Shown here: piece by piece, positions 5,821 through 43,059 of the stretch
Numbering within the stretch: position 1 is the first letter of the stretch
How the letters are laid out: each line of letters opens with the position of its first letter
Assembly: GCA_043798445.1 (NCBI GenBank)
Contig: JAZDOQ010000016.1
Location: 1 to 59,369 of the forward strand
From: Candidatus Gottesmanbacteria bacterium
Lineage (GTDB): Bacteria; Patescibacteriota; Microgenomatia; UBA10105; UBA927
Direction: 5' to 3'
Length of the DNA stretch: 59,369 nucleotides
Position numbers and translations under genes: made by a program
Notes under the pieces: model-generated
Databases searched by the model: none
What the model saw: only the letters and a program-made list of their open reading frames with translations
Told to the model about the DNA's origin: nothing

Positions 5821-5826
5821 AAGAAT

Positions 5827-18740: not shown

Positions 18741-20282
18741 ATGTTTGCCAAAAGAAGTATAGTTTCTTTTATTGTTGCTTCGTGCATATCTTTTATAATT
18801 CTCCTTACGCTCAACGACTTTGGCATTACGTGGGATGAGCCTATCTACTTTCGGAATGCAGATAGATATGTTTCATGGATAAAGCACCCAATTTTTGAAA
18901 AGGTAAATAAATCGTTTGAAGCAGCTCCCGATGATGTGCATCCACCATTCCGAAAATTAATTGCGGGAGTTACGCATAGCGTTCTTACAACTCAACTGAA
19001 GATCGTTGATAACACGAGAGGGTACAGAATTTCTTCATTGGTATTTGTATTTCCGTTTATTTTTATTTTTACATATGTCGCGATTGGATATGTCGGTTAT
19101 CTATTTGGTATCCTTGTTACTTTGATGTTTTCTTTGATGCCACATGTACTCTTTTTGACCCCACTCGTAACGCTCGATTACGCTGTTACTGCTTTGTGGT
19201 TTATGGCAGTGATAGCCATGATGAAAGGGATGAAAAACTACCGTTGGGTGTTCGTTAGTGCTATATGCACTGGATGTGCGATGCTTACAAAATTTCATGG
19301 GTATATACTGTTTATTCCGCTTGGAATAACGTGGCTTGTTTTCTTTTGGGAAAGATTAATTTCCCATACTCGTTTCAAGAAAAAAATACACTTTTTCCTG
19401 CCTTTGGTGTATTTGATTTTTGGCGCTCTCGTTATTTACTTTATAGGTTGGCCTTGGTTATGGACAGAATTGGTACCCCATCTGAAAGAGTATTTTTCAC
19501 TTCAATTTTTCCATGTTGGAGTCCCTGTTATGATCTTCGGACACATATTCACACACGTTCCCTGGTGGTATGTTCCAACGATGTTTTTTGTTACCACTCC
19601 TGCGTTCATTGTATGTTTTTTTCTATTTGGTTTATTGTATGTAGTTAAAAAAGGATCTCTTCGTGACCGTTTATTTCTCATGCATGCGTTATTTCCAATA
19701 ATATTTTTTATGCTTCCCATAGTTAATCGATACGATTGGATACGATTATTTCTCCCTGCATTTCCATTTGTATGTCTTATTGCAGGCCGTGGCATGGTGG
19801 TTGCTATCAAGTTGTTAAAAAAACAGACAAAGATTTCCGGAACTATTATCGTGATACTTCTTTGGATGGTTACCGTATATTTTTCCGTCATTCGCATTCA
19901 TCCATGGGAATCAGCATATTACAACGAGTTTGTTGGTGGCATTTCTGGAGCATATAGACTTGGTTTTGAGACGGAGTTTTGGGGAAACGCGTATAAAGGA
20001 ATTCTTCCCTGGATGAATGCAAACAAGAAAGACATGATGTGTGTGAAGCCAACAACGCAACCATTTTATTATTACCAAGCGATGGGGCAGATTGAAGGGG
20101 GAGTTGTTTTTAATGCTGGAATCGGAGCTTGTAAATATGTTGTAATACTCATGCGCCAGGGATTTTTTATACAAGATGCATTTATTGATGCAATCGTGAA
20201 AACCAGAAAACCGATTCATGCAGTATCCGTTGATGGAGTGCCTTTAGTCGGTGTGTATGATATAACTGACACAACTCATTAA
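18741..20282 (+). CDS. GT-C glycosyltransferase, PMT_2/ArnT-like
   Basis: First-loop motif GITWDEPIYF, then DVHPPF. Multi-TM protein of 513 aa with a short soluble C-terminus. Confidence 0.65.
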   Translation: MFAKRSIVSFIVASCISFIILLTLNDFGITWDEPIYFRNADRYVSWIKHPIFEKVNKSFEAAPDDVHPPFRKLIAGVTHSVLTTQLKIVDNTRGYRISSLVFVFPFIFIFTYVAIGYVGYLFGILVTLMFSLMPHVLFLTPLVTLDYAVTALWFMAVIAMMKGMKNYRWVFVSAICTGCAMLTKFHGYILFIPLGITWLVFFWERLISHTRFKKKIHFFLPLVYLIFGALVIYFIGWPWLWTELVPHLKEYFSLQFFHVGVPVMIFGHIFTHVPWWYVPTMFFVTTPAFIVCFFLFGLLYVVKKGSLRDRLFLMHALFPIIFFMLPIVNRYDWIRLFLPAFPFVCLIAGRGMVVAIKLLKKQTKISGTIIVILLWMVTVYFSVIRIHPWESAYYNEFVGGISGAYRLGFETEFWGNAYKGILPWMNANKKDMMCVKPTTQPFYYYQAMGQIEGGVVFNAGIGACKYVVILMRQGFFIQDAFIDAIVKTRKPIHAVSVDGVPLVGVYDITDTTH

Positions 20283-20283
20283 T

Positions 20284-21885
20284 ATGAAGCAATATATGTG
20301 GCTTATTATTGTCGTATTTCTAGCAGGTTTTTTACGTTTTTATAATGTCGCTTCTATTCCACCTGCACTTAATTCAGATGAAGTTGCAATAGGGTATAAC
20401 GCATACTCGATACTTAAAACTGGTCGTGATGAATACAATCGGTCATTTCCATTAACGTTTCGTTCATTTGATGACTATAAGATGCCAGTGTATGTTTACA
20501 TGGTTAGTGCAAGCATGGCATTATTTGGTACGTCTGATTTTTCAGTTCGATTTCCATCAGCTCTATTTGGAACACTCACTGTGTTGTTGACCTATTTTTT
20601 AGTAAAAGAGATCTGTAAGAAAAATAAGTTAGTTCCAATTCTAGCAGCCGTTCTTTTATCAGTCTCGCCATGGCATTTGATGTTTTCAAGAGCAGGATAT
20701 GAAGCAAATGTATCATTATTTTTTATTGTTTTTGGAGCATATTGTTTACTTGTTGGATTAAGAAAAGGATTGTATATTCCACTATCGGGAGTACTATTTG
20801 CACTTTCTATCTGGACGTATCACACAGCGCGTATTTTTGTTCCGCTTCTTTTTATTGGATTTGCGATTATATATGGGAAACACCTGTGGAAGCAGAAAGT
20901 ATATATGATTGTAGGGATACTTCTCGGACTTATTATTTTGTTTCCACTTATTAGATTATCCTTATCCGTTGAGGGGCAAATGCGTGCTATTGGTGTAAGT
21001 TCCTTTGCAAATTCGGATGATCTTAAGATTTCGATATCACGGATTATATATGATACGAAAAATAATTTATCTTTCTATTCTTTTTTTCATAATCGAAGAT
21101 TCGAATACTTTATTATTTTTATACGAGGATATTTTTCGCATTTTGATTTAAACTTCTTGTTTTTGGACAAAGCAATTGAGAAGTACCGCGCGCCGGGAGT
21201 CGGATTATTGTATCTTTTTGAATTACCACTTTTGTGTATAGGCGTGTATCAACTTATTCGCCAGTGGTCAAAAGGATCTGCTTTATTGTTTTGGTGGATT
21301 ATTATTTCACCTGTTGCAGCGGCATTCACCTTACAATTGCCACATCCTGTTCGAACGATTGTGTTTTTGCCGGTTATTCAGATTATCGCTGCATTAGGAG
21401 CAGCAGAAGTCCTTTCTAAGGCAAAACAACGTCTTACAGCTATTCTTCTATACATATTTGTTGCTTGTTGTGCGATGAATATTACCTACTTTTTCCACCA
21501 GTATTTTGTTCACATGCCCATTGAAAATGCGAAATATTGGTACGCTGGACGAAAAGAGATGGTCACTAAACTGGTACAATATGAGGATTCCTATGATCGT
21601 ATCATTGTCTCAAATCAATTGGATTTTCCCTATATATTCTTTTTATATTATGGACGCGTCGATCCACAACAGTATCAACAGAAAGGTGGTACAAAATCAG
21701 GTGGCTTTAATGAAAATGACAACGCGTGGGGTAAATACGAATTCCGCTCTTTAAGTTCTTTTGTGAGAGATCAGTATGAAAAAGTCCTGTTTGTTGGATT
21801 ACCAGGAGAAGAATTCAAAAAATCTTTGGTCGTCGATACAATATATTATCCTGATGGAAGCCCAGCAATCGTTTTCTTCAAATGA
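20284..21885 (+). CDS. GT39 (PMT_2)-like GT-C glycosyltransferase
   Basis: Motifs LNSDEVAIGYNAYSILKTGRDEY, DDYKMPVY, SPWHLMFSRAGYEAN and WGKYEFR. Close paralogue of 27923..29611, 35339..36964 and 36967..38595. Confidence 0.8.
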   Translation: MKQYMWLIIVVFLAGFLRFYNVASIPPALNSDEVAIGYNAYSILKTGRDEYNRSFPLTFRSFDDYKMPVYVYMVSASMALFGTSDFSVRFPSALFGTLTVLLTYFLVKEICKKNKLVPILAAVLLSVSPWHLMFSRAGYEANVSLFFIVFGAYCLLVGLRKGLYIPLSGVLFALSIWTYHTARIFVPLLFIGFAIIYGKHLWKQKVYMIVGILLGLIILFPLIRLSLSVEGQMRAIGVSSFANSDDLKISISRIIYDTKNNLSFYSFFHNRRFEYFIIFIRGYFSHFDLNFLFLDKAIEKYRAPGVGLLYLFELPLLCIGVYQLIRQWSKGSALLFWWIIISPVAAAFTLQLPHPVRTIVFLPVIQIIAALGAAEVLSKAKQRLTAILLYIFVACCAMNITYFFHQYFVHMPIENAKYWYAGRKEMVTKLVQYEDSYDRIIVSNQLDFPYIFFLYYGRVDPQQYQQKGGTKSGGFNENDNAWGKYEFRSLSSFVRDQYEKVLFVGLPGEEFKKSLVVDTIYYPDGSPAIVFFK

Positions 21886-21887
21886 TA

Positions 21888-23612
21888 CTAGAGTCGGCTG
21901 ATATACGTTTCACAGAAGCGTTGTTGTGAAAGTCCATCCATTGCAAAATCATGGATGGATATGTTTTGCGAATACCGTTTTAAGTTAAATCCATTGCAGA
22001 GTGAATCATTGTATATTCTATATAGTTCACCCCCATCAGAGAGTCTTGAAATGCTGAGATGTGGCACGTCGATGATTGATGAACAATTCCTATCTACAAT
22101 AGAAATTGTTGAAGAAGGTGAAATTACTAAGCGGTCATCACACGGAGCAAATGTAATACCTCCAAGGGTAAAGGTCGGTGTACTAAAATCAGATGTTATT
22201 TCCTTGATTGTTGATAGTGATATGCTATTTGTGTAAAAAAGAAATTTTCTGAAATAATCAGAATTTGCGTCAGAGTATAGAGTGATAGGGATGGAAAGTT
22301 TTCGTGCGGTTAATAGGTATTGAGATAAGACTCGTGCGTGAAAATCGAAATAGCCCCGAAGTGGATGTTGATAGACATAGACAGAGATAAATTTACCAAT
22401 GCTTATTAGGTATAAACAGCAGATTGCGGTCATAACAATTTTTTTCCAAGATTTATGCATGGACTGCACTAATTGTGTAATGCCGTAGGAAATTAATAGG
22501 ACCATAAATGGGAACATGAATGCGATATGATAAGAAAAATCTGTTTTATTTTTGTGAAAAAGCTGTGGGAGTGTAGCTACAAGAATAAATAAAGTAATGA
22601 GAATAAATTCAACCCGTTTTTTAGAAAATAAATAAAGGCTTCCAATAATAAGAAAGAGAGCATCGATGGCGTAAAACATTCCATGATTCCAAAGGGAAAA
22701 AAATTCATCTCCTTCAAGAAATAAATAGGTTGGGGAGAAGATTCGGTACAATTTGGTTACAAGAATTTGAATGTAGACGGTCATTTTATTGGTATATACC
22801 TGTGTTAACCAGGAAGAGATGCTATTTTTTCTAAAATAATCAACCTCCGACGCTATAGTTGAGTTTGTTGGAAGGAAAAGTTCTGACACCCTAGAACCTG
22901 TTGTCGTACGGGTAACTTGCATGAGAAAAAAGAGGGTAAAGAGTACGCTTATTATTCCAATAACTGCATATTGTTTTTGATAGCGCTTTCCATTTAATCG
23001 ATACGCAAGAAAAATGGAGATCAAAACAAATGGGATGAGTATTATTTTCGTTCCGATATAAGAATAAAATCCCAAGAGAAACGCAAGGCCACTAAGAAGA
23101 ATTAATGATTTTTGTTTTTGGATAACAAGGTAAAGCCCTAGTAAATAAAAAAATACTGCGATAGACCATTCATAGCTTGTTCTTCCAATATAAACCATCC
23201 AAGGATTTATCGCGGCAATAAGTCCAACAACTACTGCGGTTTTTGTATCAAATATTTTTCGAGCAATGCCATATAAGAGGATGACTATTCCTACACTGAG
23301 AATGGCAATGGGAAATCGAGCCGTGAATAAAGAAAAGGATAATAGGCCAGAAAAAGGAAGATGAATAAAATATGGTAGTTCTGCTTGCTGTTCATTTGGA
23401 GGATATTTGAAGATAAAAGCTGAGAGTGGATTCCATGTTCCTGTAAGATCTTTTCCAGTCTGAACAATGGACTTGGCAGAAATTAAGTAGGTAAGTTCAT
23501 CTCCTCCAATGGCGTTGGGTATACGATCAAGCCAAAAGAAACGGAAAAAGAGAGATATGATGAGAATAATACCGATCGGAATATAAGTAATAATTCGTTT
23601 CCGTATACCCAT
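21888..23612 (-). CDS. GT-C-type membrane glycosyltransferase, divergent GT39-like branch
   Basis: First loop GGDELTYLISAKSIVQTGKD, then INPWMVYIGRTSYE and FSPTYLFLEGDEFFSLWNHGMFY. Soluble Cys-containing C-terminal domain. Paralogue of 26165..27913. Confidence 0.7.
   Translation of the reverse strand: MGIRKRIITYIPIGIILIISLFFRFFWLDRIPNAIGGDELTYLISAKSIVQTGKDLTGTWNPLSAFIFKYPPNEQQAELPYFIHLPFSGLLSFSLFTARFPIAILSVGIVILLYGIARKIFDTKTAVVVGLIAAINPWMVYIGRTSYEWSIAVFFYLLGLYLVIQKQKSLILLSGLAFLLGFYSYIGTKIILIPFVLISIFLAYRLNGKRYQKQYAVIGIISVLFTLFFLMQVTRTTTGSRVSELFLPTNSTIASEVDYFRKNSISSWLTQVYTNKMTVYIQILVTKLYRIFSPTYLFLEGDEFFSLWNHGMFYAIDALFLIIGSLYLFSKKRVEFILITLFILVATLPQLFHKNKTDFSYHIAFMFPFMVLLISYGITQLVQSMHKSWKKIVMTAICCLYLISIGKFISVYVYQHPLRGYFDFHARVLSQYLLTARKLSIPITLYSDANSDYFRKFLFYTNSISLSTIKEITSDFSTPTFTLGGITFAPCDDRLVISPSSTISIVDRNCSSIIDVPHLSISRLSDGGELYRIYNDSLCNGFNLKRYSQNISIHDFAMDGLSQQRFCETYISRL
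21908..21959 (+). terminator. Two adjacent perfect hairpins downstream of the plus-strand operon, embedded in the 3' end of the convergent gene. Possible intrinsic terminator.
   Basis: TTTCACA (21908-21914) pairs with TGTGAAA (21925-21931), loop 10 nt. TCCATCCAT (21933-21941) pairs with ATGGATGGA (21951-21959), loop 9 nt. The second is followed by TATGTTTTG. Confidence 0.35.
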
Positions 23613-26162: not shown

Positions 26163-26164
26163 GG

Positions 26165-27913: not shown

Positions 27914-27922
27914 GATAAAACG

Positions 27923-33581: not shown

Positions 33582-35286
33582 AATCTTCACCAAATTGTTG
33601 CACTAGTTGAATATGTTGAAATTTACTGGCTTCTCGTTTGACGTCTATCATATATGTATCAGTATACTGCCATGCGTGGACAATAACATACCTGACATGT
33701 TGTTTTTCAAGCATAGAAATAGATTCTTTTGAGGGGAAATGTTGTAGTGTCATTGCTTGATCATGATATATTTGAGGGAAAAATCCACTATATCCGTTAA
33801 GCATTCGTTTTCGATGATAACTCGAAAAATACGTTCGATATGCTTCTAGAGCATAGACTTCATTTTCTTTAATTTCAGAATACTGTTGAAATAGTTGATC
33901 TTCCATTGATGTAATAATGCTGGAAAAGGGTCTAAATGGAATCTCAACTATAATTGAAGAGTCTGATTGTTTGGATAACCATTGGTAGACAACGGGTATA
34001 TCCTTTTGAAGAGGAATGGGAACTGAAGGAGTTTGAATCTGCCACACCTCAATCATAAAAAGAAGAATAATAAGACCAGCAAGAAGAAATTTAAATCTTC
34101 TTTTGAGAATATGTGATAGACCAATCGCTGCAAGGGCTGAGAACGCAAGGACAACGATAATGCTAAAACGGGATGGTACACGTATGGTTTGCATGAGAGG
34201 AATAAATTGATAGAGGTAATAGTATGGCATAGTGACATGAAACCATTCGAATTTTCCAATGATGATGTCCAAATATGGACCAAATGATAGGATCCATGCA
34301 CTTATGCCAGTGAGTGATAGGAGAGCAACATATTTTTTATACTTTTTCCAACCGACGATCATTCCGAAAATTGCTAGGATTGTCAATGTAGCGGTGAGAT
34401 ATAGTGGTCGTTCGTTGATGTTAGTTGGAAACATATTGTATGTAGCTAACCAACTTGTAGGGAGTACAGTTTTGTAGTCAACTAGTTGTGCACTAAATCT
34501 GGCAGAGTCTTCGAGTGATCGTTTGATTTGGGGATATTCAATTTTTAAACGGATATATGGATATAAAACAAGAATTAATACACCCATCATTGGAATGAAA
34601 AAAATGGCTAAACTTCTTAGAATTCTCTTTAATGTTTTTATGGATTTTTCTTTAATCAGTCGTATCGATTCAAGAACAATAGTAAATATGACAAAAGGGA
34701 TAAGAAATATTCCAAAATATATTGAAGAAGCTATGCTTAGTAGATAAAAAAGGAATGTTAACAGTAAGTGTTTCCATGATCCATGCTCCATGTATTTGAT
34801 TAAATAGAGAACAAATAATGGGATCCATTGGCTGCTAATCATTGGCATATGTCCAATTTGAGCAAGCCTAGGATAAGCAAATGCAAAAAAGATGCCGGAT
34901 AAAAATGACGCTAATAGATGTTTTGTGAGAAAGTAAGAAAGGAAAAACATTGAAATTGCAGCAAGAGGAAACGTTATGAATATGTACAAATTTTCTGTGA
35001 GTACAACATTGTTTGTCAGCAGTTGTATCGGCATTGTAAAAATGGTTTGACCGTATAGTGTGTCTGAGAACGAAAGGGTATTTCCTTCAGGATAGAATAT
35101 ATTTGTATCAAGCATCCCCCTGCCTTTTTGAAGAACAGATTGGGTATTATGGTTAATGTTCCAAGCATAAAATACCGGATCAACCGCATTAGGGAGATTT
35201 GTGTGTAGCTTATTACTATAGGGTAAAAAAATGAGGTAGGTTATGAAGCACGTAAGGAGGATGAGAATAAGTACTGCTTTTTTCAT
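33556..35286 (-). CDS. Uncharacterised polytopic membrane protein with a C-terminal extracytoplasmic domain. GT-C-like architecture is inferred.
   Basis: ATG 35286 (MKKAVLILILL) is preceded by GGAAG 4 nt upstream. First loop DPVFYAWNINHN..NIFYPEGNTLSFSD. About 12 hydrophobic helices, then a soluble domain of about 150 aa. I recognise no family motif. Confidence 0.45.
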   Translation of the reverse strand: MKKAVLILILLTCFITYLIFLPYSNKLHTNLPNAVDPVFYAWNINHNTQSVLQKGRGMLDTNIFYPEGNTLSFSDTLYGQTIFTMPIQLLTNNVVLTENLYIFITFPLAAISMFFLSYFLTKHLLASFLSGIFFAFAYPRLAQIGHMPMISSQWIPLFVLYLIKYMEHGSWKHLLLTFLFYLLSIASSIYFGIFLIPFVIFTIVLESIRLIKEKSIKTLKRILRSLAIFFIPMMGVLILVLYPYIRLKIEYPQIKRSLEDSARFSAQLVDYKTVLPTSWLATYNMFPTNINERPLYLTATLTILAIFGMIVGWKKYKKYVALLSLTGISAWILSFGPYLDIIIGKFEWFHVTMPYYYLYQFIPLMQTIRVPSRFSIIVVLAFSALAAIGLSHILKRRFKFLLAGLIILLFMIEVWQIQTPSVPIPLQKDIPVVYQWLSKQSDSSIIVEIPFRPFSSIITSMEDQLFQQYSEIKENEVYALEAYRTYFSSYHRKRMLNGYSGFFPQIYHDQAMTLQHFPSKESISMLEKQHVRYVIVHAWQYTDTYMIDVKREASKFQHIQLVQQFGEDYVYEIIKK

Positions 35287-35338
35287 ACCACTTCCTATTT
35301 TCTTAGGGTATAATAGAGGTATCATACACGGTACGAAT
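35287..35338. promoter_or_regulatory. 52-bp divergent intergenic region with candidate bidirectional promoter
   Basis: Plus-strand TATAAT at 35309-35314 lies 25 nt before ATG 35339. Its complement gives TATTAT on the minus strand (35310-35315). GGAAG (complement of 35291-35295) lies 4 nt before the minus-strand ATG. Confidence 0.4.
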
Positions 35339-36964
35339 ATGTTTTCCAAGTGGATTATATTTATTGTAATAATTTTAAGCGCTTTTATTTTACGGTTTTA
35401 TGCAATTGATCGTATTCCGCCTTCACTTTCGTGGGATGAGGTGTCTATTGGGTATAACGCATATAGCATTCTTCGTACGGGTCTGGATGAACATGGGAAA
35501 TTCTTGCCCATAGATGCATTTGCTGGATACGGCGACTATAAACCGCCTCTTTCTATTTATCTGACTATTCCTTTTGTTGTGATATTTGGACTTACTGAGG
35601 TATCTGTTCGTTTCCCTTCAGCATTATTTGGGACATTGACCGTGCTCATGACGTTTTTTTTGGTGCGAGCGCTCTTTTATAAATCCAAAAGCGCGACGCT
35701 TCCGTTGTTGTCTTCTGCGCTTTTTGCAATTTCTCCATGGCATATTAATTTATCGCGTGCTGGGTTTGAGGCAAATATCGCGCTGTTTTTTATAGTGCTC
35801 GGTGTGTGGTTGGTACTGAAGGCAAGAGAGCAGAAAAACTATTGGTTTTTTGCCTGGATACCATTTGCACTGTCGATGTATACGTTCAATAGCGCTCGGT
35901 ACTTTGTTGTATTTATTGGTATAGCCCTCTTTATATATTCGTTTTCTTCAATTAAAAAGCACATTGTGCCGTTTCTTTTTGGTTTGGGTGTTGCCGCAAT
36001 TATCGTTTTTCCACTTGTCCCACATCTTTTGTCAAAAGAGGCGCGGCTTCGTTTTGTCGAAGTAAATATTTTTACGGACGCATCAGTTGTAAAGACCGCA
36101 AATGAGAGAATTGAGCGGGGAAAGAATAGCATACTTGCAACCGTGTTAAACAATCGAAGAATTGGATACGCACGAAGCTACCTACTTCATTTTTTTGATA
36201 ATCTGCAGCCTGATTTTTTGTTTATCAAAGGAGACGGTAATCCAAAGTTTTCCATACAGGATGTGGGGCAGCTATATATAATGGAAGCCCCATTTCTTGC
36301 TATTGGCATCCTTTCGTTATTTGTTGCGCATCCTTCTGTCGGAGCACTTTTGTTATTTTGGCTCCTTGCATCGATTATTCCAGCTGCCACTGCCCGGGAA
36401 ACGCCGCATGCACTTCGAATACTTAATTCATTACCAACATGGCAGATATTTATTGCGTTTGGCATTGTCACGTGTGGAACAAAGATGAAAGAGTGGAGTA
36501 AAAAAATAAAACTATCAGTTCCGGTATTTGTTTTTGTGTTGATAGGACTATATGTATTCAGTATCACGTATTATCTTCATAACTATTATCGTCATTACGG
36601 AGTTGAATATTCAGGGGAATGGCAATATGGATACCGAGAAGCAATTGCTGCATCAGAGAAAATAAAAGATAGGTATGACACGATTGTAATGTCCGAAACC
36701 ATCGGGCGACCGTATATGTATACGTTATTTTATACAAAAACGGATCCTAAAGAGTTACTGAGAACAAAAGACGCGACATTTGATTCTGCAGGGTTTTACC
36801 ATGTGTATGGATTTGGAAAATACCGTTTTGGTGGGACGTTGCCGACTCCACTTGCGCCAAAGACACTCTATATTTGGGATTCTGCTCCTGAGGATGCACG
36901 TATTATTGAAACAATACGTTTGTTAAATGGAAATCCTGTACTCGTGTTGTTTGACAAAAAATAA
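35339..36964 (+). CDS. GT39 (PMT_2)-like GT-C glycosyltransferase
   Basis: ATG 35339 (MFSKWIIFIV). Motifs SWDEVSIGYNAYSILRTGLDEHG, GDYKPPL, SPWHINLSRAGFEAN and FGKYRF. The 35243 extension overlaps the divergent gene. Confidence 0.8.
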   Translation: MFSKWIIFIVIILSAFILRFYAIDRIPPSLSWDEVSIGYNAYSILRTGLDEHGKFLPIDAFAGYGDYKPPLSIYLTIPFVVIFGLTEVSVRFPSALFGTLTVLMTFFLVRALFYKSKSATLPLLSSALFAISPWHINLSRAGFEANIALFFIVLGVWLVLKAREQKNYWFFAWIPFALSMYTFNSARYFVVFIGIALFIYSFSSIKKHIVPFLFGLGVAAIIVFPLVPHLLSKEARLRFVEVNIFTDASVVKTANERIERGKNSILATVLNNRRIGYARSYLLHFFDNLQPDFLFIKGDGNPKFSIQDVGQLYIMEAPFLAIGILSLFVAHPSVGALLLFWLLASIIPAATARETPHALRILNSLPTWQIFIAFGIVTCGTKMKEWSKKIKLSVPVFVFVLIGLYVFSITYYLHNYYRHYGVEYSGEWQYGYREAIAASEKIKDRYDTIVMSETIGRPYMYTLFYTKTDPKELLRTKDATFDSAGFYHVYGFGKYRFGGTLPTPLAPKTLYIWDSAPEDARIIETIRLLNGNPVLVLFDKK

Positions 36965-36966
36965 AT

Positions 36967-38595
36967 ATGAAACGATTTTTACTATTGGTTTGTATCCTGG
37001 GAATCGCCATCGGTTTTCGGTTTTGGCAACTCGGGAGTGTTCCGGTCAGTCTTGATTGGGATGAAACAGCACTTGGATATAACGCATATTCGATTCTTAA
37101 AACCGGTCGGGATGAATACGGGACATTCTTACCGCTATCCATCCGATCATTCGACGATTATAAACCGCCATTATATGTATATTTGACTGTACCGTCAGTT
37201 GCTTTGTTTGGATTGTCTCCGTGGTCAACGAGACTTCCTTCGGCCGTTATGGGAGTACTTGCGGTTCTTGGAACGTATTTTTTGGTTCGAGAATTATTCA
37301 AGAAATCGAACAGTATACCACTTATATCAGCGGCACTATTGGCCATATCTCCATGGCATATTCAATTTTCTCGTATTGCGTTTGAAGCAAATATTGGAAT
37401 CACTGTAAATATCTGGGCGGTGACGATATTTCTCATAGGGTTAAGAAAAAAAATATTCCTTCCGTTTGCAGCTGTGCTTTTTGGTATTGGAATGTATGCG
37501 TATCATAGTGAACGGATCTTTTTGCCGCTTCTTCTTTGTTTATTACTTGCTGTGTACTGGAAAAAAATATTTATAAAAGAACACACAAAAATGCTGATCA
37601 CATCCGTTATTGTCGGACTCATTGTTGTTATTCCTCTTATACCGGTTTTATTTAATAAATCAGCAATGATGCGCCTTCGTGGAACAAGCTCATTTACTGA
37701 TCAAACAAATTTATTGTCGCGTGACATTAAAAAAATTGAAACAGACAGGCAGTTGGGAGATACATTCGGTGCACTGCTTGATAACCGTCGCATTGTTTGG
37801 GCAAAAACTATTGCCTCCGGATATTTATCACATTTTTCTTTGCGGTGGTTGTTTTTAACTGGAGATAATCCGCGACATCACGCGCCGGATATGGGGCTTT
37901 TATACTTAATTGAATTACCATTTTTGTTGTATGGACTGTATATGCTTGTAAAAGTAAAGGAGTATAACACTGAAGCAAAATTACTCATCGGCTGGGTTCT
38001 AATTGCGCCTGTTGCGGCTTCTCCAACAACAGGTTTGCCACACGCAATACGGTCGTTAGTATTTTTGCCGGTGTTTCAAATGATAACTGCTATCGGGATA
38101 GTATCGTTTTTTGGTAATGTGAGGGGAAAAATAAAATGGATGCTTATCGCGCTGGCCGTTATCGGAATGTTTGCAAATATTGTCTATTATCTCAATATGT
38201 ACTTTGTTCAGATGAATCCTGAATTTTCAGAGTACTGGCAACAGGGAAACAAGGAAGCAGTGATGTTAACAGAAAAATTGAAATCAAAATACGACAAAGT
38301 GGTCGTATCAACGCAGATAGAACAATCGTATATGTTTTTCCTTTTTTATACAAAATACGATCCAGCGCTGTATTTAGCGGGCGGCGGAACAAATTCTGGA
38401 AGTTTTGAAGAAGCAAAGAATAAGTTCGATAAATATGAATTTAGGGTTATTAAATGGTCACAAGAAAAACGTGATGGAAGCATCCTGTATGTTGGCGCTC
38501 CAGGTGATATGCCGCGCGGAAATGTTGGAAACATCACATTTTTAAACGGAAAACCAGCGATAGAAATTGCTGATCAACCAAATGGTGCGCCATAA
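36967..38595 (+). CDS. GT39 (PMT_2)-like GT-C glycosyltransferase, tandem paralogue of 35339..36964
   Basis: Motifs DWDETALGYNAYSILKTGRDEYG, DDYKPPLY, SPWHIQFSRIAFEAN and FDKYEFR. Confidence 0.8.
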   Translation: MKRFLLLVCILGIAIGFRFWQLGSVPVSLDWDETALGYNAYSILKTGRDEYGTFLPLSIRSFDDYKPPLYVYLTVPSVALFGLSPWSTRLPSAVMGVLAVLGTYFLVRELFKKSNSIPLISAALLAISPWHIQFSRIAFEANIGITVNIWAVTIFLIGLRKKIFLPFAAVLFGIGMYAYHSERIFLPLLLCLLLAVYWKKIFIKEHTKMLITSVIVGLIVVIPLIPVLFNKSAMMRLRGTSSFTDQTNLLSRDIKKIETDRQLGDTFGALLDNRRIVWAKTIASGYLSHFSLRWLFLTGDNPRHHAPDMGLLYLIELPFLLYGLYMLVKVKEYNTEAKLLIGWVLIAPVAASPTTGLPHAIRSLVFLPVFQMITAIGIVSFFGNVRGKIKWMLIALAVIGMFANIVYYLNMYFVQMNPEFSEYWQQGNKEAVMLTEKLKSKYDKVVVSTQIEQSYMFFLFYTKYDPALYLAGGGTNSGSFEEAKNKFDKYEFRVIKWSQEKRDGSILYVGAPGDMPRGNVGNITFLNGKPAIEIADQPNGAP

Positions 38596-38596
38596 T

Positions 38597-40093
38597 ATGA
38601 AAAAATCAACGTTACTACTGATAATTATTATATCCGTGATTTTGATTATTGCGGCTGTTCCCCGTTCTGTTGAAGTATTCAGTCAAAATTTTATTTTTGG
38701 ATATGATCAGGGTAAGCACTGGCTAGCGGCAAAGTCGATTGTTATTGATCATAAATTTCCACTTATTGGCGATGAAGTGGGTGGTGCGAGAGGTTTTTTT
38801 CAGGGATCCGGTTGGTTTTATCTCTTGGCAGTTCCGTTTTTACTTTTTCAGGGTAACCCCTATGGTGGCATTGTGCTCATGTTTTTAATTGGAATGATGA
38901 TGGTTATCGGTGCATTGTGGCTATTTGCGAGAAATTTTGGAGTAAAAAAAGCATTGGTAATCGGACTATGTTTTGCCTTGTCACCGGTTTTTATTGAAAT
39001 ATCAAGATTTGCTTGGCCTCCGTATGTCATTCCGCCGTTAATGGTTGTGTATTTGTACTGCGTATATCGAATTATTAAAGCTGAATATATCTATATTCCG
39101 ATTCTTTCTTTTGTCGTTGGTATGATGGCTCATTTTGAGATCGCCACAGCTGGGACACTTCTTATTACTACTATTTGTATGGGGTTGCCGTACATACTAT
39201 GGAAAAAAGTACCGTTTCGTTATATTGCATGGTCAGGTTTAGCGTTTATTATTCCACTAACACCTCTCATTATTTTTGATCTTCGTCATGATTTTTTAAA
39301 TATCCGCGGAGTGATAGCTACGTTTTTTGGACCATCACAAAACGGTCTTCCACGTTCTGATATGACCCATACATTTGCCAATCATTGGCTTATATTCAGC
39401 AGTGATTTTTTTCGTGCGTTTCAGGTAAAATATTTGACAAAAATCGGAAGTCTCGTCGTATTGTTATTAGGTATTCCCTTGTTATGGAATAAAAGAATTG
39501 AAAAACATGAACGTACATTCGTTGCATTTTTATATGCATTTCCTGCTGTGTTATTTATTGTTCTTATGGCGTATCGAAATGACTTATGGGGATGGTGGAT
39601 TCTTGAACTTCCTGTCGTAAGCTGTATTCTATTGGGGTTGGTTCTTTCTAACATGTGGACAAGAAAACAAATTGTTTGGAGAATTATTGTTGTAGCCGCA
39701 ATTGCGCTTATGTTTGCAGGTTACCTTCGTTCAGCAATAAACTTTTGGGATTATGATTATAAAGATTATGGTGGTACGCATAAAATGAGGGGGAAAAGCG
39801 ACGCGATAGATTTTATATTTTCTGATGCCAAGTCGAAAAATTTCGGACTCTTTGTCTTTGCACCGCCGATTTATACATATCCGTATGATTTTATTTTGTG
39901 GTGGAAAGGGCGTATGTACGGGTATCAACCACCACAAGAAAAAAAGCAGACCTATTATTTATTGGCAGAACCAGATCCTGAGAAACCATGGACGTATAAA
40001 GGATGGATGGAAACAGCAGTTACCGGCGGAACGGATATACAAACGTGGACGTTACCTTCTGGTTTTATTGTGGTGAAACGTTCGATGCCATAA
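38597..40093 (+). CDS. Polytopic membrane protein of an unnamed family, putative GT-C-type
   Basis: ATG 38597 (MKKSTLLLII) lies 1 nt after the upstream stop. First loop GYDQGKHWLAAKSIVIDHKFPLIGDEVGG..GFFQGSGWFY. Paralogue of 44199..45677 (GPEQGRDMLVIRDIVVNHKLTLIGSKTD..GIFHGPIFYY). Soluble C-terminal domain of about 120 aa. Confidence 0.5.
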   Translation: MKKSTLLLIIIISVILIIAAVPRSVEVFSQNFIFGYDQGKHWLAAKSIVIDHKFPLIGDEVGGARGFFQGSGWFYLLAVPFLLFQGNPYGGIVLMFLIGMMMVIGALWLFARNFGVKKALVIGLCFALSPVFIEISRFAWPPYVIPPLMVVYLYCVYRIIKAEYIYIPILSFVVGMMAHFEIATAGTLLITTICMGLPYILWKKVPFRYIAWSGLAFIIPLTPLIIFDLRHDFLNIRGVIATFFGPSQNGLPRSDMTHTFANHWLIFSSDFFRAFQVKYLTKIGSLVVLLLGIPLLWNKRIEKHERTFVAFLYAFPAVLFIVLMAYRNDLWGWWILELPVVSCILLGLVLSNMWTRKQIVWRIIVVAAIALMFAGYLRSAINFWDYDYKDYGGTHKMRGKSDAIDFIFSDAKSKNFGLFVFAPPIYTYPYDFILWWKGRMYGYQPPQEKKQTYYLLAEPDPEKPWTYKGWMETAVTGGTDIQTWTLPSGFIVVKRSMP

Positions 40094-40114
40094 ACAAGTA
40101 GAGTCTATGCAAAT

Positions 40115-41767
40115 ATGATGAAATGTATAAAAAAATATAGTGTGCTCATTCTTCTTATCGTGGCGCTAATTCCCATGGTCGCCTTTTTGAATCAAGGACT
40201 CCCAATTACACATGATGGACAAGATCATGTAGCGCGCATTGCAAATTTTTATCGTTCGTTAAGTGAAGGAAACGTCATTCCACGATGGGCTGCAAATTTA
40301 AATTGGGGATATGGTCATCCGATACTAATGTTTTTATATCCGTTACCATCGTATATTGCGTCCTTATTTCACGCTGTCGGTTTATCATTTGTGGATAGCA
40401 CAAAGCTTGTGTTCGTTATCGCCTATGTTGCAAGTGGGCTTGCGATGTATATATGGATGAAAGAAGCATTCGGAAAACGCGTGGGCGTAATCGGATCAAT
40501 CCTATATCTATTTGCTCCGTATCGATTTGTAGATATATATGTTCGAGGAGCAATAGGTGAACATGTGGCATTTATATTTCCACCACTCGTTTTGTATTTT
40601 CTTTACAAATTGGCAAAAGATAGAAAAAATACGTTTACCGGCATTGGATTAAGTGTGTCGATGGCATGTTTTATTTTATCTCACAATGCAATTTCCATCA
40701 TGTTTCTACCGATTATCGGTTTGTATCTTCTGTATGTATTCTTCACTGATGGAAAGAAATCGAATGGGTTTCTTTTAACAAGCGTATGGTATTTGCTTCT
40801 CGGCTTTGGTTTATCGTCCTTCTTTTTACTTCCTGCGTTTTTTGAAGGGAAGTATACGCTCCGTGACATTGTGACTTCAGGAGAAGCAATGCAGCGATTT
40901 GTACCGCCTTTGATGTTCTTATACTCTCCGTGGAACTACGGAGGAGGGAATGATATTACAAAAATGATTGGTTTATCACAATTGATTGGACTGGGAGCCG
41001 CAATTGCGCTGTGGCTTAAAACGAAAGAACTAAGCAAGAAAATTATTATGTCTGTTCTTTTTGTATTGTTTATTGGCTCTTTGTTTATGATGACAGAGTG
41101 GTCAAGAATACTATGGACAAATATAACGCTGTTGCAAAAATTTCAATTTCCTTGGCGATTTTTGAGCGTTTCAACTTTTCTTGCCGCAGCGCTTGGAGGT
41201 TTGGCTGTTGCAGCTTTTACATTGAAATCAAAGATAACGACAGCAATCGTATTAAGTGTTTTCTGTGTCTTTTCAGTTGTAAGTACGATACATATGTGGC
41301 AACCAAAAGGATATCAGCAAAAAGGTGAGTCATTTTACACTGGTATATATTTAAGTACGACCGATACGGGAGAGAGCAGTCCGATTTGGTCAACGCGCTT
41401 CATGGAATATGTGTACGACCGTCCGATAACGGTAATTGATGGTGCTGCAGCCATAAAAGAAATAAAACGGACATCAATTGTTCATGAGTATGAGATCGAT
41501 GTTGCAAAGCCAACACGATTTGTAGAAAACACGGTATATTTTCCTGGATGGAATGTGTTTGTTGATGGAAGAAAAATGGATATTGAATTTCAAGATCCAA
41601 ACCATCGAGGGTTACTAACGTTTTATGCACCAGAAGGAAAACATATCGTTCGTGTTCAATTTGAAGATACTAAACTACGGTTTATGGCCAATATTATCAG
41701 TGTTGTATCGCTAGGTGTACTTATTCTTGGCGGAGTGATACTTTCTTTATGGAGGAAAAAAGTATGA
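40115..41767 (+). CDS. Polytopic membrane protein of the PTPS-related / COG5617 family
   Basis: Motifs ITHDGQDHVARI, SEGNVIPRWAANLNWGYGHPILMFLYPLPSY and FQFPWRFL. C-terminal VYFPGWNVFVDGRK..FQDPNHRGLLTFYAPEGKH, then a terminal TM. Confidence 0.7.
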   Translation: MMKCIKKYSVLILLIVALIPMVAFLNQGLPITHDGQDHVARIANFYRSLSEGNVIPRWAANLNWGYGHPILMFLYPLPSYIASLFHAVGLSFVDSTKLVFVIAYVASGLAMYIWMKEAFGKRVGVIGSILYLFAPYRFVDIYVRGAIGEHVAFIFPPLVLYFLYKLAKDRKNTFTGIGLSVSMACFILSHNAISIMFLPIIGLYLLYVFFTDGKKSNGFLLTSVWYLLLGFGLSSFFLLPAFFEGKYTLRDIVTSGEAMQRFVPPLMFLYSPWNYGGGNDITKMIGLSQLIGLGAAIALWLKTKELSKKIIMSVLFVLFIGSLFMMTEWSRILWTNITLLQKFQFPWRFLSVSTFLAAALGGLAVAAFTLKSKITTAIVLSVFCVFSVVSTIHMWQPKGYQQKGESFYTGIYLSTTDTGESSPIWSTRFMEYVYDRPITVIDGAAAIKEIKRTSIVHEYEIDVAKPTRFVENTVYFPGWNVFVDGRKMDIEFQDPNHRGLLTFYAPEGKHIVRVQFEDTKLRFMANIISVVSLGVLILGGVILSLWRKKV

Positions 41768-43058: not shown

Positions 43059-43059
43059 T

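What the first reader, a model, noticed from the sequence alone, without database searches (positions are those of the whole stretch)
18741..41767. Thirteen consecutive GT-C-type membrane genes with no cytoplasmic enzyme between them
From 18741 to 41767, about 23 kb, every gene is a large polytopic GT-C-like protein. The order is PMT_2-like, GT39, divergent GT39, YfhO, divergent GT39, GT39, YfhO, PTPS-related, orphan, GT39, GT39, unnamed family, PTPS-related. All the cytoplasmic GT2/GT4, flippase and nucleotide-sugar genes sit in the two flanks. This segregation suggests a dedicated periplasmic-face module distinct from the donor-supply modules. It is also the part of the locus where strand orientation switches.
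Basis: seen in the sequence. Interest (0 to 1): 0.7.

Follow-up and report, generated by a model that had tools for sequence, protein, structure and literature searches.

The report
Giant membrane glycosyltransferase array, CPR bacterium
A tiny-genome candidate-phyla-radiation bacterium (Gottesmanbacteria-like) has 13 membrane-embedded GT-C sugar-transferase genes in a row, and 22 in 59 kb, which points to an unusually elaborate surface glycan built on the outside of the cell membrane.

Summary
Bases 18741-41767 hold 13 tightly packed ORFs of 508-839 aa, and all 13 are polytopic GT-C-fold glycosyltransferases. Eight pass Pfam cut-offs for PMT_2, PMT, YfhO or PTPS_related. Three are clear paralogues of those eight. 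The two orphans were resolved by profile search, a conserved motif and AlphaFold/Foldseek models.

The claimed segregation is only partly true. The flanks hold nine more GT-C genes, and probably a tenth cut by the contig end, mixed with GT2, GT4 and Wzx-type genes. About 64% of the window codes for GT-C proteins.

The contig comes from a Gottesmanbacteria-like CPR bacterium. Gene order and the strand switches recur in independent assemblies at 40-84% identity, so this is not a mis-assembly or an invertible segment. Paralogues share at most 40% identity, and 12 of the 13 core genes sit with syntenic counterparts in fetched relatives. The duplications are therefore ancient. Gene gain, loss and mosaic identity occur around 23.6-28 kb, and run length in relatives ranges from about 6 to at least 12.

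Most likely mechanism: four DPMS/ArnC-like GT2s make polyprenyl-phosphate sugars, and the GT-Cs add them one linkage at a time to a surface glycan, as in mycobacterial LAM/arabinogalactan assembly. The acceptor is unknown. I rate it a new variant of a known kind, interest about 0.6.

The parts
18741..20282 (+). Divergent GT39/ArnT-like GT-C glycosyltransferase, 513 aa, 10 TM. No paralogue in the window.
   Evidence: No Pfham hit itself: no Pfam hit for the protein itself, but many homologues carry PMT_2 or PMT. A profile of 43 homologues hits yeast Pmt2 (6p25_B) at E 9.7e-6. W31-D32-E33 are invariant and P34 is nearly invariant (>=90%), just after TM1. The AF2 model has pLDDT 92.2. Foldseek top hits are ALG12, ArnT, Pmt4 and STT3, E down to 1.6e-6.
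20284..21885 (+). PMT_2 (GT39/GT83-like) GT-C, paralogue family A.
   Evidence: PMT_2 60.2 bits. 10 TM. SDE motif after TM1. 40% identical to 36967. Orthologues at 42-82% identity in many Gottesmanbacteria-like contigs.
21888..23612 (-). Divergent PMT_2 GT-C, family A'. A single gene on the minus strand.
   Evidence: PMT_2 32 bits. 10 TM. GDE motif. 33% identical to 26165. The same minus orientation recurs in L001, L019, L008 and L020.
23643..26162 (+). YfhO-family GT-C, 839 aa.
   Evidence: YfhO 107.5 bits. 10 TM including a C-terminal TM. 27-32% identical to the three other YfhO paralogues.
26165..27913 (-). Divergent PMT_2-like GT-C, family A'. The variable gene of the array and the lowest GC in the core.
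   Evidence: PMT_2 22.5 bits, below the cut-off of 26.1. 33% identical over 581 aa to 21888, E 1e-99. SDDE motif. Absent from L001/L003 and present in L019 at 71% identity. Only one cluster above 43% identity among 1.84 billion representatives. GC 0.336.
27923..29611 (-). PMT_2-like GT-C, family A.
   Evidence: PMT_2 24.9 bits, just below the cut-off. 31% identical over 554 aa to 20284, E 4e-80. QDE motif.
29608..31938 (-). YfhO-family GT-C, 776 aa.
   Evidence: YfhO 96.4 bits. 10 TM. Its orthogroup sits next to DUF6311 in almost all related loci.
31935..33593 (-). PTPS_related-family GT-C, family C.
   Evidence: PTPS_related 53.4 bits. 11 TM. 35% identical to 40115. Orthologues found only in the closest relatives L001/L003 and L019.
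33556..35349 (-). The start is probably at 35286 (576 aa). It anchors the divergent junction.
   Evidence: Homologues carry PF19830 DUF6311. The AF2 model has pLDDT 91.4. Foldseek hits are STT3, DPY19, AglB, PglB, ALG12 and ArnT, E 3e-8 to 1e-2. D36 after TM1 is invariant. No WWDYG motif.
35243..36964 (+). PMT + PMT_2 (GT39-like) GT-C, family A. The start is probably at 35339.
   Evidence: PMT_2 46 bits and PMT 41.6 bits. WDE motif. Orthologues of 534-559 aa lie at the same position in all full-length Gottesmanbacteria-like loci L003-L013 that cover this side.
36967..38595 (+). PMT_2 GT-C, family A.
   Evidence: PMT_2 53.6 bits. WDE motif. Orthologues at 55-83% identity in every related locus.
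38567..40093 (+). Distantly PMT_2-like.
   Evidence: PMT_2 18.8 bits, below the cut-off. 25% identical over 504 aa, E 3e-30, to 44130, which passes both PMT_2 and PMT. 9 TM. YDQG acidic motif.
40115..41767 (+). PTPS_related GT-C, family C. Last gene of the run.
   Evidence: PTPS_related 59.1, YfhO 33.5 and PMT_2 28.3 bits, all above their cut-offs. Orthologues in all related loci.
1..780 (+). C-terminal 259 aa of a membrane protein cut by the contig end. Possibly a 23rd GT-C.
   Evidence: The frame is open from base 1, with 4 TM followed by a soluble domain. There is weak similarity (E 0.05-0.24) to the C-terminal parts of family D.
1542..7503 (+). Four flank GT-C genes: 1542-2711 (GT87-like), 2718-4259 (PMT_2), 4237-5820 (PTPS family) and 5827-7503 (PTPS_related).
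12125..17816 (+). Two flank YfhO GT-C genes (12125-14542 and 15579-17816) separated by a GT4 gene (14539-15582).
   Evidence: YfhO 109.4 and 42.5 bits, plus Glycos_transf_1 for the GT4. The same YfhO-GT4-YfhO-GT2 backbone occurs in L001, L012 and L020.
43024..47324 (+). Three flank GT-C genes: 43024-44202 (GT87/MptA-B-like), 44130-45677 (PMT_2/PMT, family D) and 45684-47324 (PTPS family).
   Evidence: Orthologues of 43024 carry PF26314 MptA_B_family. 43024 is 31% identical to 1542.
777..1535 (+). DPMS/ArnC/GtrB-like GT2, a putative polyprenyl-phosphate sugar synthase. The other three are at 7475-8230, 48382-49068 and 50327-51118.
   Evidence: For all four, the best solved relative is Pyrococcus dolichol-P-mannose synthase 5mlz, E 3e-22 to 3e-10. 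For three of them (not 7475) ArnC and GtrB (sll0501) come next. The best NCBIfam hits are PgfS, ArnC, AglJ and dolichyl-P hexose transferase, all below cut-offs. The control GT2s 41749 and 17820 do not rank DPMS first.
8217..9662 (+). Wzx-type (MOP) flippase. A second one is at 49065-50330.
   Evidence: Polysacc_synt_3 187.9 bits for 8217 and 39 bits for 49065. NCBIfam MOP flippase / O-glycosylation flippase at 102 bits, below the cut-off.
17820..18734 (+). GT2 at the left border of the run.
   Evidence: Glycos_transf_2 76.3 bits. Conserved at this position in L001, L012, L019 and L020.
41749..43058 (+). Right border of the run: a GT2 (41749-42525) and a secreted DUF5667 protein (42363-43058, true start probably near 42516).
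   Evidence: Glycos_transf_2 72.5 bits and DUF5667 26.5 bits. The GT2 is followed by an MptA/B-like gene in L003, L004, L005, L007, L012 and L013, and the DUF5667 gene sits between them in five of those six; in L005 it appears merged into the GT2 ORF. The best solved relative of the GT2 is GmaR, E 5e-17.

Best explanation
The 13 genes are all real GT-C-fold integral-membrane glycosyltransferases. They form the densest part of a surface-glycan supercluster of at least 59 kb in a Gottesmanbacteria-like CPR bacterium. The cluster holds 22 complete GT-C genes, and possibly a 23rd cut by the contig end.

Proposed mechanism (inferred from family knowledge):
1. Four DPMS/ArnC/GtrB-like GT2 enzymes in the flanks load sugars from nucleotide sugars onto polyprenyl phosphate at the inner face of the membrane.
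2. The lipid-linked sugars, and probably a lipid-linked primer built by the other GT2 and GT4 enzymes, are flipped across the membrane. Two Wzx-type flippases are encoded in the window.
3. At the outer face, each GT-C uses its acidic residue in the first extracytoplasmic loop to transfer one sugar in one linkage to a growing surface glycan. The acceptor could be a polysaccharide, a lipoglycan or a glycoprotein.

The logic matches the many GT-C enzymes that build mycobacterial lipoarabinomannan and arabinogalactan, and the ER-lumen ALG enzymes. The few donor synthases against the many GT-Cs imply that the paralogues differ mainly in acceptor or linkage specificity.

The uninterrupted run is the product of ancient duplications within five families. 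Lineage-specific gain, loss and recombination followed. It is not a separately organised 'module'.
For: Shown here.
- GT-C identity of all 13 genes: Pfam, paralogy, profile search against the PDB, structure models and Foldseek.
- Polytopic topology.
- All 22 GT-C proteins keep a D/E motif right after TM1. It is invariant in the two orphan families.
- Four GT2s have DPMS as their closest solved relative, and three of them ArnC and GtrB next. The control GT2s do not.
- Two MOP/Wzx flippases are present.
- Nucleotide-sugar genes lie at the right end.
- GT87 and MptA/B-like GT-Cs are present.
- 12 of the 13 core genes group with their own syntenic counterparts in fetched relatives down to about 40% identity, while in-window paralogues are at most 40% identical. 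26165 is the exception: a lone branch in the tree, with one orthologue in L019. This argues for distinct, conserved roles.
- Distant DUF6311 homologues are fused to carbohydrate-binding-type domains (F5/8 type C, PA14), which hints at a glycan acceptor.

From the literature.
- The GT-A synthase + flippase + GT-C scheme for extracytoplasmic glycosylation, including Wzx-type flippases and YfhO or PMT_2 enzymes, is described in PMC8035078 and PMC5836110.
- PTPS_related, PMT_2 and GT87 are members of the GT-C clan CL0111 (PMC7801869).
Against: - No donor, acceptor or product is known, and every biochemical step is inferred.
- The GT2 assignments rest on hits far below NCBIfam cut-offs.
- The window holds no initiating phosphoglycosyltransferase, no GtrA-type flippase and no Wzy or ligase. 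The contig is cut at both ends.
- PTPS_related and DUF6311 have no characterised member.
- One pathway cannot be told apart from several independent pathways.
- There are no expression data. The promoter and terminator scans were uninformative: 45 promoter-like sites against 74 expected.
Confidence: 0.65

Rival explanations
1. Toolbox rather than assembly line. The GT-Cs are largely independent decorators, each paired with a donor. They modify different acceptors (peptidoglycan-linked polymers, lipids, several proteins) and do not act in sequence on one glycan.
For: The characterised bacterial YfhO and PMT_2 enzymes are single-step decorators of teichoic acids or polysaccharides (PMC8035078). 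Individual genes are gained and lost without the rest of the array collapsing. The strand switches imply several transcription units.
Against: There are only four donor-synthase candidates for 22 GT-Cs. Clustering is tight and conserved, with overlapping stop and start codons. MptA/B- and GT87-type enzymes are chain builders in mycobacteria (established knowledge).
Confidence: 0.25
2. Mainly protein O-glycosylation. The DE-motif PMT-like members act as protein O-mannosyltransferases on secreted, pilin or S-layer proteins. The other GT-Cs then elongate the protein-linked glycans.
For: 35243 and 44130 pass the PMT (PF02366) model. The 18741 profile hits yeast Pmt2 and its model hits Pmt4. Seven core genes carry the DE motif typical of PMTs. 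The border GT2 41749 is closest to the protein and peptide glycosyltransferases GmaR and SunS. A bacterial GT39 is required for protein glycosylation in Caldicellulosiruptor (PMC6151902, abstract seen).
Against: PMT_2 also covers ArnT-type lipid and polysaccharide transferases. ArnT and ALG12 score as well as Pmt4 by fold. No MIR domain is present. No Ser/Thr-rich candidate substrate is encoded in the window; the DUF5667 protein is not S/T-rich.
Confidence: 0.2
3. Diversity cassette. The array is a hot spot for surface-glycan variation, comparable to an O-antigen locus. Selection from phages or host attachment drives gene swapping, and only part of the array may be used in a given lineage.
For: Gene content differs between close relatives: 26165 is present or absent, L019 has an extra YfhO, and L003 has an extra 412-aa PMT_2. 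Identity is mosaic. 18741-21888 are 82-84% identical to L001 but 65-70% to L019, whereas 27923-33556 are 55-80% against 73-82%. DUF6311 is only 55% identical in the otherwise 82% relative. 26165 has the lowest GC in the core.
Against: Most orthogroups and the strand pattern are conserved down to about 40% identity. No invertible-element or recombinase signature is present, and no long exact inverted repeats. This reading is compatible with the main explanation and does not replace it.
Confidence: 0.3
4. Artefact. The run results from chimeric assembly, or several of the genes are decaying pseudogenes.
For: The window is a single metagenomic contig, and paralogous repeats can confuse assemblers.
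Against: The same order and orientation across every junction appear in independent assemblies from different samples: JGI 3300037810, Logan SRR18595301, SRR21285575 and SRR13727518. Paralogues are at most 40% identical at protein level, and DNA repeats are at most 81% identical over 69 nt or less, too divergent to mis-join. All ORFs are intact, have lengths matching their orthologues, and keep the catalytic motif.
Confidence: 0.01

Closest known systems
Multi-component (three-component) transmembrane glycosylation systems of Gram-positive bacteria and Gtr/Arn systems (CsbB-GtcA-YfhO, GtlA-GtcA-GtlB, GacI/J-GacK-GacL, ArnC-ArnT)
   Same: The enzyme classes match: a GT2 polyprenyl-phosphate sugar synthase, a flippase (Wzx-type, as with GacK), and a polytopic GT-C of the YfhO or PMT_2 family with an acidic loop-1 motif (PMC8035078).
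   Different: Known systems have one GT-C per system and one to three per genome locus. Here there are 22 in 59 kb and 13 in a row, with about four synthases. No GtrA-family flippase is present. The families PTPS_related and DUF6311 have never been characterised.
Mycobacterial and corynebacterial cell-envelope GT-C set (MptA/B/C, PimE/GT87, EmbA/B/C, AftA-D) that builds LM/LAM and arabinogalactan
   Same: Many GT-C paralogues share a few polyprenyl-phosphate sugar donors and each makes one linkage of a large extracytoplasmic glycan. GT87 and MptA/B-family homologues are present in the flanks. The models match Emb and AftB at lower rank.
   Different: Apart from embCAB, the mycobacterial genes are, to my knowledge, mostly dispersed in the genome. 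No Emb or Aft family member is found here. The organism is a CPR bacterium with a genome of about 1 Mb. No arabinose or decaprenyl pathway genes are seen.
Eukaryotic ER-lumen pathway (ALG3/9/12/6/8/10 + DPM1/ALG5 + OST/STT3) and PMT protein O-mannosyltransferases
   Same: The division of labour is the same: cytoplasmic GT-A/GT-B steps, a flip, then GT-C steps that use polyprenyl (dolichyl) phosphate sugars. The 18741 model is closest to ALG12, ArnT and Pmt4. The DUF6311 model is closest to STT3 and DPY19. The GT2s are closest to archaeal DPMS.
   Different: Sequence identity is 10-16%. No STT3 Pfam hit and no WWDYG motif. No MIR domain. The resemblance is at fold and logic level only.
Wzx/Wzy-type O-antigen and capsule gene clusters
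   Same: A long, mostly co-oriented cluster mixing GT2/GT4 genes, Wzx flippases and nucleotide-sugar genes, with gene-content variation and mosaicism between relatives.
   Different: Such clusters rarely contain more than one GT-C-like gene. No Wzy polymerase, chain-length regulator or initiating transferase is detected in this window.

Membership tests
GT-C fold glycosyltransferase superfamily (Pfam clan CL0111) | Polytopic integral membrane protein (about 8-13 TM) with an N-terminal TM bundle | tested here: met
   All 13 core proteins have 7-11 hydrophobic segments by a Kyte-Doolittle scan, which is a crude method. The AF2 models of 18741 and 33556 are helical bundles with a small C-terminal alpha/beta domain.
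GT-C fold glycosyltransferase superfamily (Pfam clan CL0111) | Sequence membership in a GT-C clan family | tested here: met
   Eight of 13 score above Pfam gathering cut-offs. 26165, 27923 and 38567 score below the cut-off but are full-length paralogues (E 1e-99, 4e-80 and 3e-30) of proteins that pass. The 18741 profile hits Pmt2 at E 9.7e-6. Homologues of 33556 carry DUF6311. Clan membership of PTPS_related, PMT_2 and GT87 is taken from PMC7801869.
GT-C fold glycosyltransferase superfamily (Pfam clan CL0111) | Conserved acidic (D/E, modified DxD) residue in the first extracytoplasmic loop | tested here: met
   A DE, DD or D motif lies 5-40 residues after TM1 in all 22 proteins. D32-E33 are invariant in the 18741 family and D36 is invariant in the DUF6311 family. 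The side of the membrane the loop faces is inferred, not tested.
GT-C fold glycosyltransferase superfamily (Pfam clan CL0111) | GT-C fold shown by structure comparison, for the two genes without a Pfam hit | tested here: met
   33556: pLDDT 91.4; STT3, DPY19, AglB, PglB, ALG12 and ArnT at probability 1.00, TM about 0.41-0.53. 18741: pLDDT 92.2; ALG12, ArnT, Pmt4, STT3, Emb and AftB.
GT-C fold glycosyltransferase superfamily (Pfam clan CL0111) | Transfer from a polyprenyl-(di)phosphate-linked sugar donor | not testable with these tools
   Needs biochemistry.
YfhO-type multi-component transmembrane glycosylation system (CsbB-GtcA-YfhO) | YfhO-family GT-C | tested here: met
   23643 (107.5 bits) and 29608 (96.4 bits) in the core; 12125 (109.4) and 15579 (42.5) in the flank.
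YfhO-type multi-component transmembrane glycosylation system (CsbB-GtcA-YfhO) | Membrane-associated GT2 that makes the polyprenyl-phosphate sugar (CsbB/GtrB-like) | tested here: inconclusive
   Four GT2s rank DPMS first among solved structures, and three of them ArnC and GtrB next. They score far below the NCBIfam equivalog cut-offs and lack the C-terminal TM pair of GtrB.
YfhO-type multi-component transmembrane glycosylation system (CsbB-GtcA-YfhO) | GtrA-family small flippase | tested here: not met
   No GtrA hit among the ORFs of the window scanned against Pfam, and no unassigned coding space. Two Wzx-type MOP flippases are present instead. The contig is incomplete.
GT39 protein O-mannosyltransferase (PMT) | PMT (PF02366) N-terminal domain with the loop-1 DE motif | tested here: inconclusive
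   In the core only 35243 passes PF02366 (41.6 bits). The DE motif is present in 18741, 20284, 21888, 26165, 27923, 35243 and 36967. PMT_2 hits do not separate PMT from ArnT-like enzymes.
GT39 protein O-mannosyltransferase (PMT) | MIR domain in the large luminal loop (eukaryotic PMTs) | tested here: not met
   No MIR hit in any of the 13. To my knowledge bacterial PMTs also lack it, so this excludes only the eukaryotic type.
GT39 protein O-mannosyltransferase (PMT) | Ser/Thr of a protein as acceptor | not testable with these tools
   No candidate substrate is identified in the window.
Oligosaccharyltransferase STT3/PglB/AglB (considered for DUF6311, 33556-35349) | STT3 Pfam domain and the WWDYG motif in the C-terminal domain | tested here: not met
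   No Pfam hit at E up to 5. No WWD[YWF]G in any protein of the window. The resemblance is in fold only, at 9-13% identity.
GT87 / MptA-B polyprenyl-phosphate-mannose-dependent mannosyltransferases | GT87 or MptA_B family domain | tested here: met
   This applies to flank genes only. 1542 scores GT87 31.6 bits against a cut-off of 25. Orthologues of 43024 carry PF26314 MptA_B_family. 43024 is 31% identical to 1542. None of the 13 core genes belongs here.

The most novel reading that the evidence does not exclude
This CPR lineage builds a large, highly branched surface glycan almost entirely on the outer face of the membrane. It does so with the largest contiguous GT-C array I am aware of: 22-23 enzymes, about 6% of a genome of roughly 1 Mb. 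That would make it a bacterial counterpart of the ER-lumen or LAM-type assembly line. Under this reading, the uncharacterised DUF6311 family, which has an STT3-like fold and anchors the divergent junction in every relative, would be the final en-bloc transferase or ligase. The PTPS_related family would be new chain-building glycosyltransferases. The glycan would then be a prime candidate for episymbiont-host attachment or phage evasion.
Probability: 0.2. Interest if true: 0.85.

Novelty: new variant of a known kind. Interest (0 to 1): 0.6.

Why it matters
CPR bacteria have tiny genomes and are thought to live attached to other cells, yet their envelopes are almost unknown. A cluster in which 64% of 59 kb codes for outer-face glycosyltransferases is a large investment in surface glycans. 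If the genome is about 1 Mb, like the 1.006-Mb contig of a relative, the cluster would be roughly 6% of it. That estimate is an inference.

The cluster offers three things:
- A defined gene set for testing how CPR cells build their surface.
- Natural variants, in the form of gene gain and loss between relatives, that can be correlated with glycan structure or host range.
- Entry points to two uncharacterised GT-C families, PTPS_related and DUF6311, for which good structural models can now be made.

I found no paper linking CPR/Patescibacteria with GT-C arrays in the held library. This is weak evidence of novelty, because subscription literature is not covered.

Tried and rejected
- Exact-sequence look-up of the window's 20284 protein found nothing.
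- The first search for related loci attempts failed. Alignment A1 was too divergent, and the single-protein scan of genome contigs returned no true relative. A tighter alignment, A3, worked.
- The metagenome scan for 26165 returned only one locus at 31% identity, L018, which is not an orthologue.
- Invertible or phase-variable segment hypothesis. No long or exact inverted repeats flank the minus-strand blocks. All repeats are diverged paralogue homology. The orientation is fixed across relatives. Rejected.
- The promoter and terminator scans were uninformative, with fewer promoter-like sites than in shuffles.
- No tRNA, Rfam family or tandem repeat was found in the window.
- The profile of the DUF6311 family found no solved structure by sequence. 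The fold search was needed instead.
- Recent in-locus duplication. Rejected, because the closest paralogue pair is only 40% identical, while orthologues in other genomes are 45-84% identical.
- OST identity for DUF6311. Rejected at the motif and Pfam level.
- dN/dS was not attempted, because synonymous sites would be saturated at 70-84% protein identity.

Full report
OBSERVATION

The window has 44 complete ORFs of 150 aa or more that tile it almost without gaps. Thirteen of them fill 18741-41767. They are separated by at most 30 bp or overlap by a few bases, and every other ORF of 60 aa or more lies nested inside them. All 13 are long (508-839 aa) and have 7-11 hydrophobic segments.

Pfam assigns them as follows.
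- 20284, 21888, 35243 and 36967: PMT_2. 35243 also hits PMT.
- 23643 and 29608: YfhO.
- 31935 and 40115: PTPS_related.
- 26165, 27923 and 38567: PMT_2 below the gathering score.
- 18741 and 33556: no hit.

All-against-all BLASTP shows that the three sub-threshold proteins are full-length paralogues of proteins that pass.
- 26165 against 21888: 33% identity, E 1e-99.
- 27923 against 20284: 31% identity, E 4e-80.
- 38567 against the flank gene 44130: 25% identity, E 3e-30. 44130 passes both PMT_2 and PMT.

The two orphans were resolved separately.
- 18741. Many homologues carry PMT_2 or PMT. A profile of 43 homologues hits yeast Pmt2 at E 9.7e-6. W31-D32-E33 are invariant and P34 nearly so. A model with pLDDT 92.2 matches ALG12, ArnT, Pmt4, STT3, Emb and AftB.
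- 33556. It belongs to DUF6311. Its model has pLDDT 91.4 and matches STT3, DPY19, AglB, PglB, ALG12 and ArnT. D36 just after TM1 is invariant.

The strand switches are also as described.

The flanks are not free of GT-C genes. Nine more polytopic GT-C-like genes lie there.
- 1542: GT87.
- 2718: PMT_2.
- 4237 and 5827: PTPS family.
- 12125 and 15579: YfhO.
- 43024: GT87/MptA-B-like. Its orthologues carry PF26314.
- 44130: PMT_2/PMT.
- 45684: PTPS family.

The first ORF is open from base 1. It looks like the C-terminal part of yet another such protein. In total 22 complete GT-C genes make up 64% of the window's bases.

The other genes in the flanks are:
- ten GT2 and four GT4 genes;
- two Wzx-type flippases;
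- a methyltransferase;
- a small secreted DUF5667 protein;
- a CDP-glucose-type nucleotide-sugar block with a ThDP enzyme.

Given 22 GT-C genes among 44, a run of 13 is still unlikely by chance: 233 of 1,000,000 shuffles. The clean picture of a core against donor-supply flanks is nevertheless overstated.

ORIGIN AND ASSEMBLY

The closest named homologues are from Candidatus Gottesmanbacteria and the 'Patescibacteria group'. This is a CPR bacterium.

Independent assemblies carry the same genes in the same order and orientation across every junction.
- L001/L003: a JGI contig of 408 kb, about 82% identical.
- L002: a Logan assembly.
- L019: a Logan assembly from another run, about 70% identical.
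- L008/L020: a named Gottesmanbacteria MAG, about 45% identical.

The minus-strand single gene 21888 and the minus-strand block ending at DUF6311 are both reproduced. Repeats inside the region are only diverged paralogue homology, at most 81% identical over 69 nt. No inverted repeats bracket the minus-strand blocks. Mis-assembly and site-specific inversion are therefore rejected.

PARALOGUE FAMILIES AND HISTORY

BLASTP defines these families.
- A: 20284, 27923, 35243, 36967, at 30-40% identity.
- A': 21888, 26165, at 33%.
- B (YfhO): 12125, 15579, 23643, 29608, at 27-32%.
- C (PTPS): 4237, 5827, 31935, 40115, 45684, at 24-35%.
- D: 38567, 44130, at 25%.
- E (GT87): 1542, 43024, at 31%.
- Singletons: 18741, 33556 and, more distantly related to family A, 2718.

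In NJ trees with proteins from the related loci, most window paralogues group with syntenic orthologues from other genomes, not with their window paralogues. Several flank paralogues (2718, 4237, 5827) and 26165 stand alone among the loci that were fetched. Orthologues of 20284 reach 45-82% identity, while its nearest paralogue is 40% identical. The duplications therefore predate the diversification of this clade and are not recent in-locus events.

GENE TURNOVER

- The 82% relative lacks 26165 and instead has an extra 412-aa PMT_2 gene between the 38567 and 40115 orthologues.
- The 70% relative keeps 26165 at 71% identity and has an additional YfhO beside it.
- 26165 has a single cluster above 43% identity among 1.84 billion representatives. 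It also has the lowest GC of the core.
- 31935 has orthologues only in the closest relatives.
- L012 lacks the whole 18741-27923 block and has a methyltransferase there. L020 has a methyltransferase in place of 18741.
- Run length thus varies from about 6 to at least 12 visible in one 21.7-kb locus. Outside CPR (Armatimonadota, Acidobacteriota), DUF6311 is not part of an array.
- Identities are mosaic. 18741-21888 are closer to L001 (82-84%) than to L019 (65-70%). 27923-33556 are closer to L019 (73-82%) than to L001/L003 (55-80%). DUF6311 is only 55% identical in the otherwise 82% relative. This suggests recombination, with a breakpoint near the variable 23.6-28 kb stretch. It is an inference and no formal test was run.

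MECHANISM

Shown:
- All 22 GT-Cs retain an acidic motif immediately after TM1, which is the position of the catalytic or metal-binding residue of GT-C enzymes (PMC8035078).
- Four small GT2s (777, 7475, 48382, 50327) have Pyrococcus dolichol-phosphate-mannose synthase as their closest solved relative, and three of them have ArnC and GtrB next.
- Two control GT2s do not show this. 41749 is closest to GmaR and SunS, and 17820 to other GT2s.
- Two MOP/Wzx flippases are encoded.

Inferred:
- The DPMS-like enzymes make a few polyprenyl-phosphate sugars.
- These sugars, and perhaps a lipid-linked primer from the remaining GT2 and GT4 enzymes, are flipped across the membrane.
- The GT-Cs then add single sugars in defined linkages to a surface glycan at the outer face.

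This is the scheme of multi-component transmembrane glycosylation systems (PMC8035078, PMC5836110), scaled up to resemble the mycobacterial LM/LAM/arabinogalactan GT-C set. The few synthases against the many GT-Cs, together with conservation of each orthogroup, argue that the paralogues differ in acceptor or linkage specificity. Fusion of distant DUF6311 homologues to discoidin and PA14 domains hints at glycan acceptors.

Weak points:
- The NCBIfam hits for the GT2s are far below the cut-offs.
- The window has no initiating transferase, no GtrA and no Wzy or ligase, and both contig ends cut the cluster.
- The acceptor is unknown, and protein O-glycosylation remains a live alternative (PMT hits, DE motifs, the GmaR-like GT2).

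COMPARISON WITH KNOWN SYSTEMS AND NOVELTY

Every family present belongs to a known superfamily, and the logic is known. The unusual features are:
- the scale and contiguity of the array;
- its occurrence in a CPR lineage with a genome of about 1 Mb (a relative's contig is 1.006 Mb);
- the dominance of two uncharacterised families, PTPS_related and DUF6311.

DUF6311 resembles STT3 only in fold. It has no STT3 Pfam hit and no WWDYG motif, so it is not filed as an oligosaccharyltransferase.

Seven full-text searches found no paper linking CPR/Patescibacteria with GT-C arrays. The held library does not cover subscription journals, so this is only weak evidence of novelty.

VERDICT

- Observation: confirmed.
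- Interpretation: partly supported.
- Novelty: a new variant of a known kind.
- Interest: about 0.6.

Noticed in passing
window 55509-59369: A glucose-1-phosphate cytidylyltransferase-like gene (270 bits) and a CDP-glucose 4,6-dehydratase-like gene (180 bits) are followed by an acetolactate-synthase-like ThDP enzyme (393 bits). A further epimerase/reductase ORF runs off the right end. This may be a CDP-linked deoxy- or branched-chain-sugar pathway. The YerE-type idea comes from memory and was not tested.
   Followed up: partly
window 41749-44202: The GT2 at the right border of the run is closest to the protein and peptide glycosyltransferases GmaR (E 5e-17) and SunS among solved structures. 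In relatives it is followed by an MptA/B-like GT-C, usually with a small secreted DUF5667 protein between them (conserved motif YVLPYPSYMPGN). This conserved trio has no known function.
   Followed up: partly
window 1-780: The first ORF is open from base 1. It is the C-terminal 259 aa of a membrane protein cut by the contig end, with weak similarity to the C-termini of GT-C family D. It may be a 23rd GT-C, and the cluster extends beyond the contig.
   Followed up: partly
window 18741-35349 compared with L001/L003 and L019: Identity is mosaic. The left genes are closer to one relative and the right genes to another. DUF6311 is only 55% identical in the otherwise 82% relative. This suggests recombination inside the locus, near the stretch where gene content varies.
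   Followed up: partly
window 52236-55504: The only sizeable intergenic gap of the window (209 bp, 52236-52443) is followed by three low-GC genes: a GT4, a methyltransferase and a GT2, at GC 0.34-0.35 against about 0.38 elsewhere. This may be a separately acquired sub-module.
   Followed up: no
distant homologues of 33556-35349 (P0203, P0210, P0218): Some distant DUF6311-family proteins are longer and carry F5/8 type C (discoidin), Kre9/KNH or PA14 domains. This suggests carbohydrate acceptors for the family.
   Followed up: no
L001 2121-4289 compared with L002 463-2781: The orthologue of YfhO 12125 is split into 582-aa and 101-aa pieces in the JGI contig but is intact (772 aa) in the Logan assembly that carries the same P0002 protein. 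The split is probably a frameshift or assembly error in one of them.
   Followed up: no
L005-L011, L014 (record titles): Several MAG contigs that carry this CPR-type array are titled 'uncultured Gammaproteobacteria bacterium'. Given their gene content and 41-53% identity to Gottesmanbacteria-like proteins, these look like placeholder or wrong taxonomic labels.
   Followed up: no
L020 1736-2569: A Bro-N domain gene, a family common in phages, sits inside the left flank of the glycosylation cluster of a Gottesmanbacteria relative.
   Followed up: no
window 23613-23642 and 35287-35338: The two divergent junctions are only about 30 bp and about 52 bp long, using the likely true starts. They are AT-rich, and the second contains a TATAAT. 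That is very little room for two divergent promoters.
   Followed up: no
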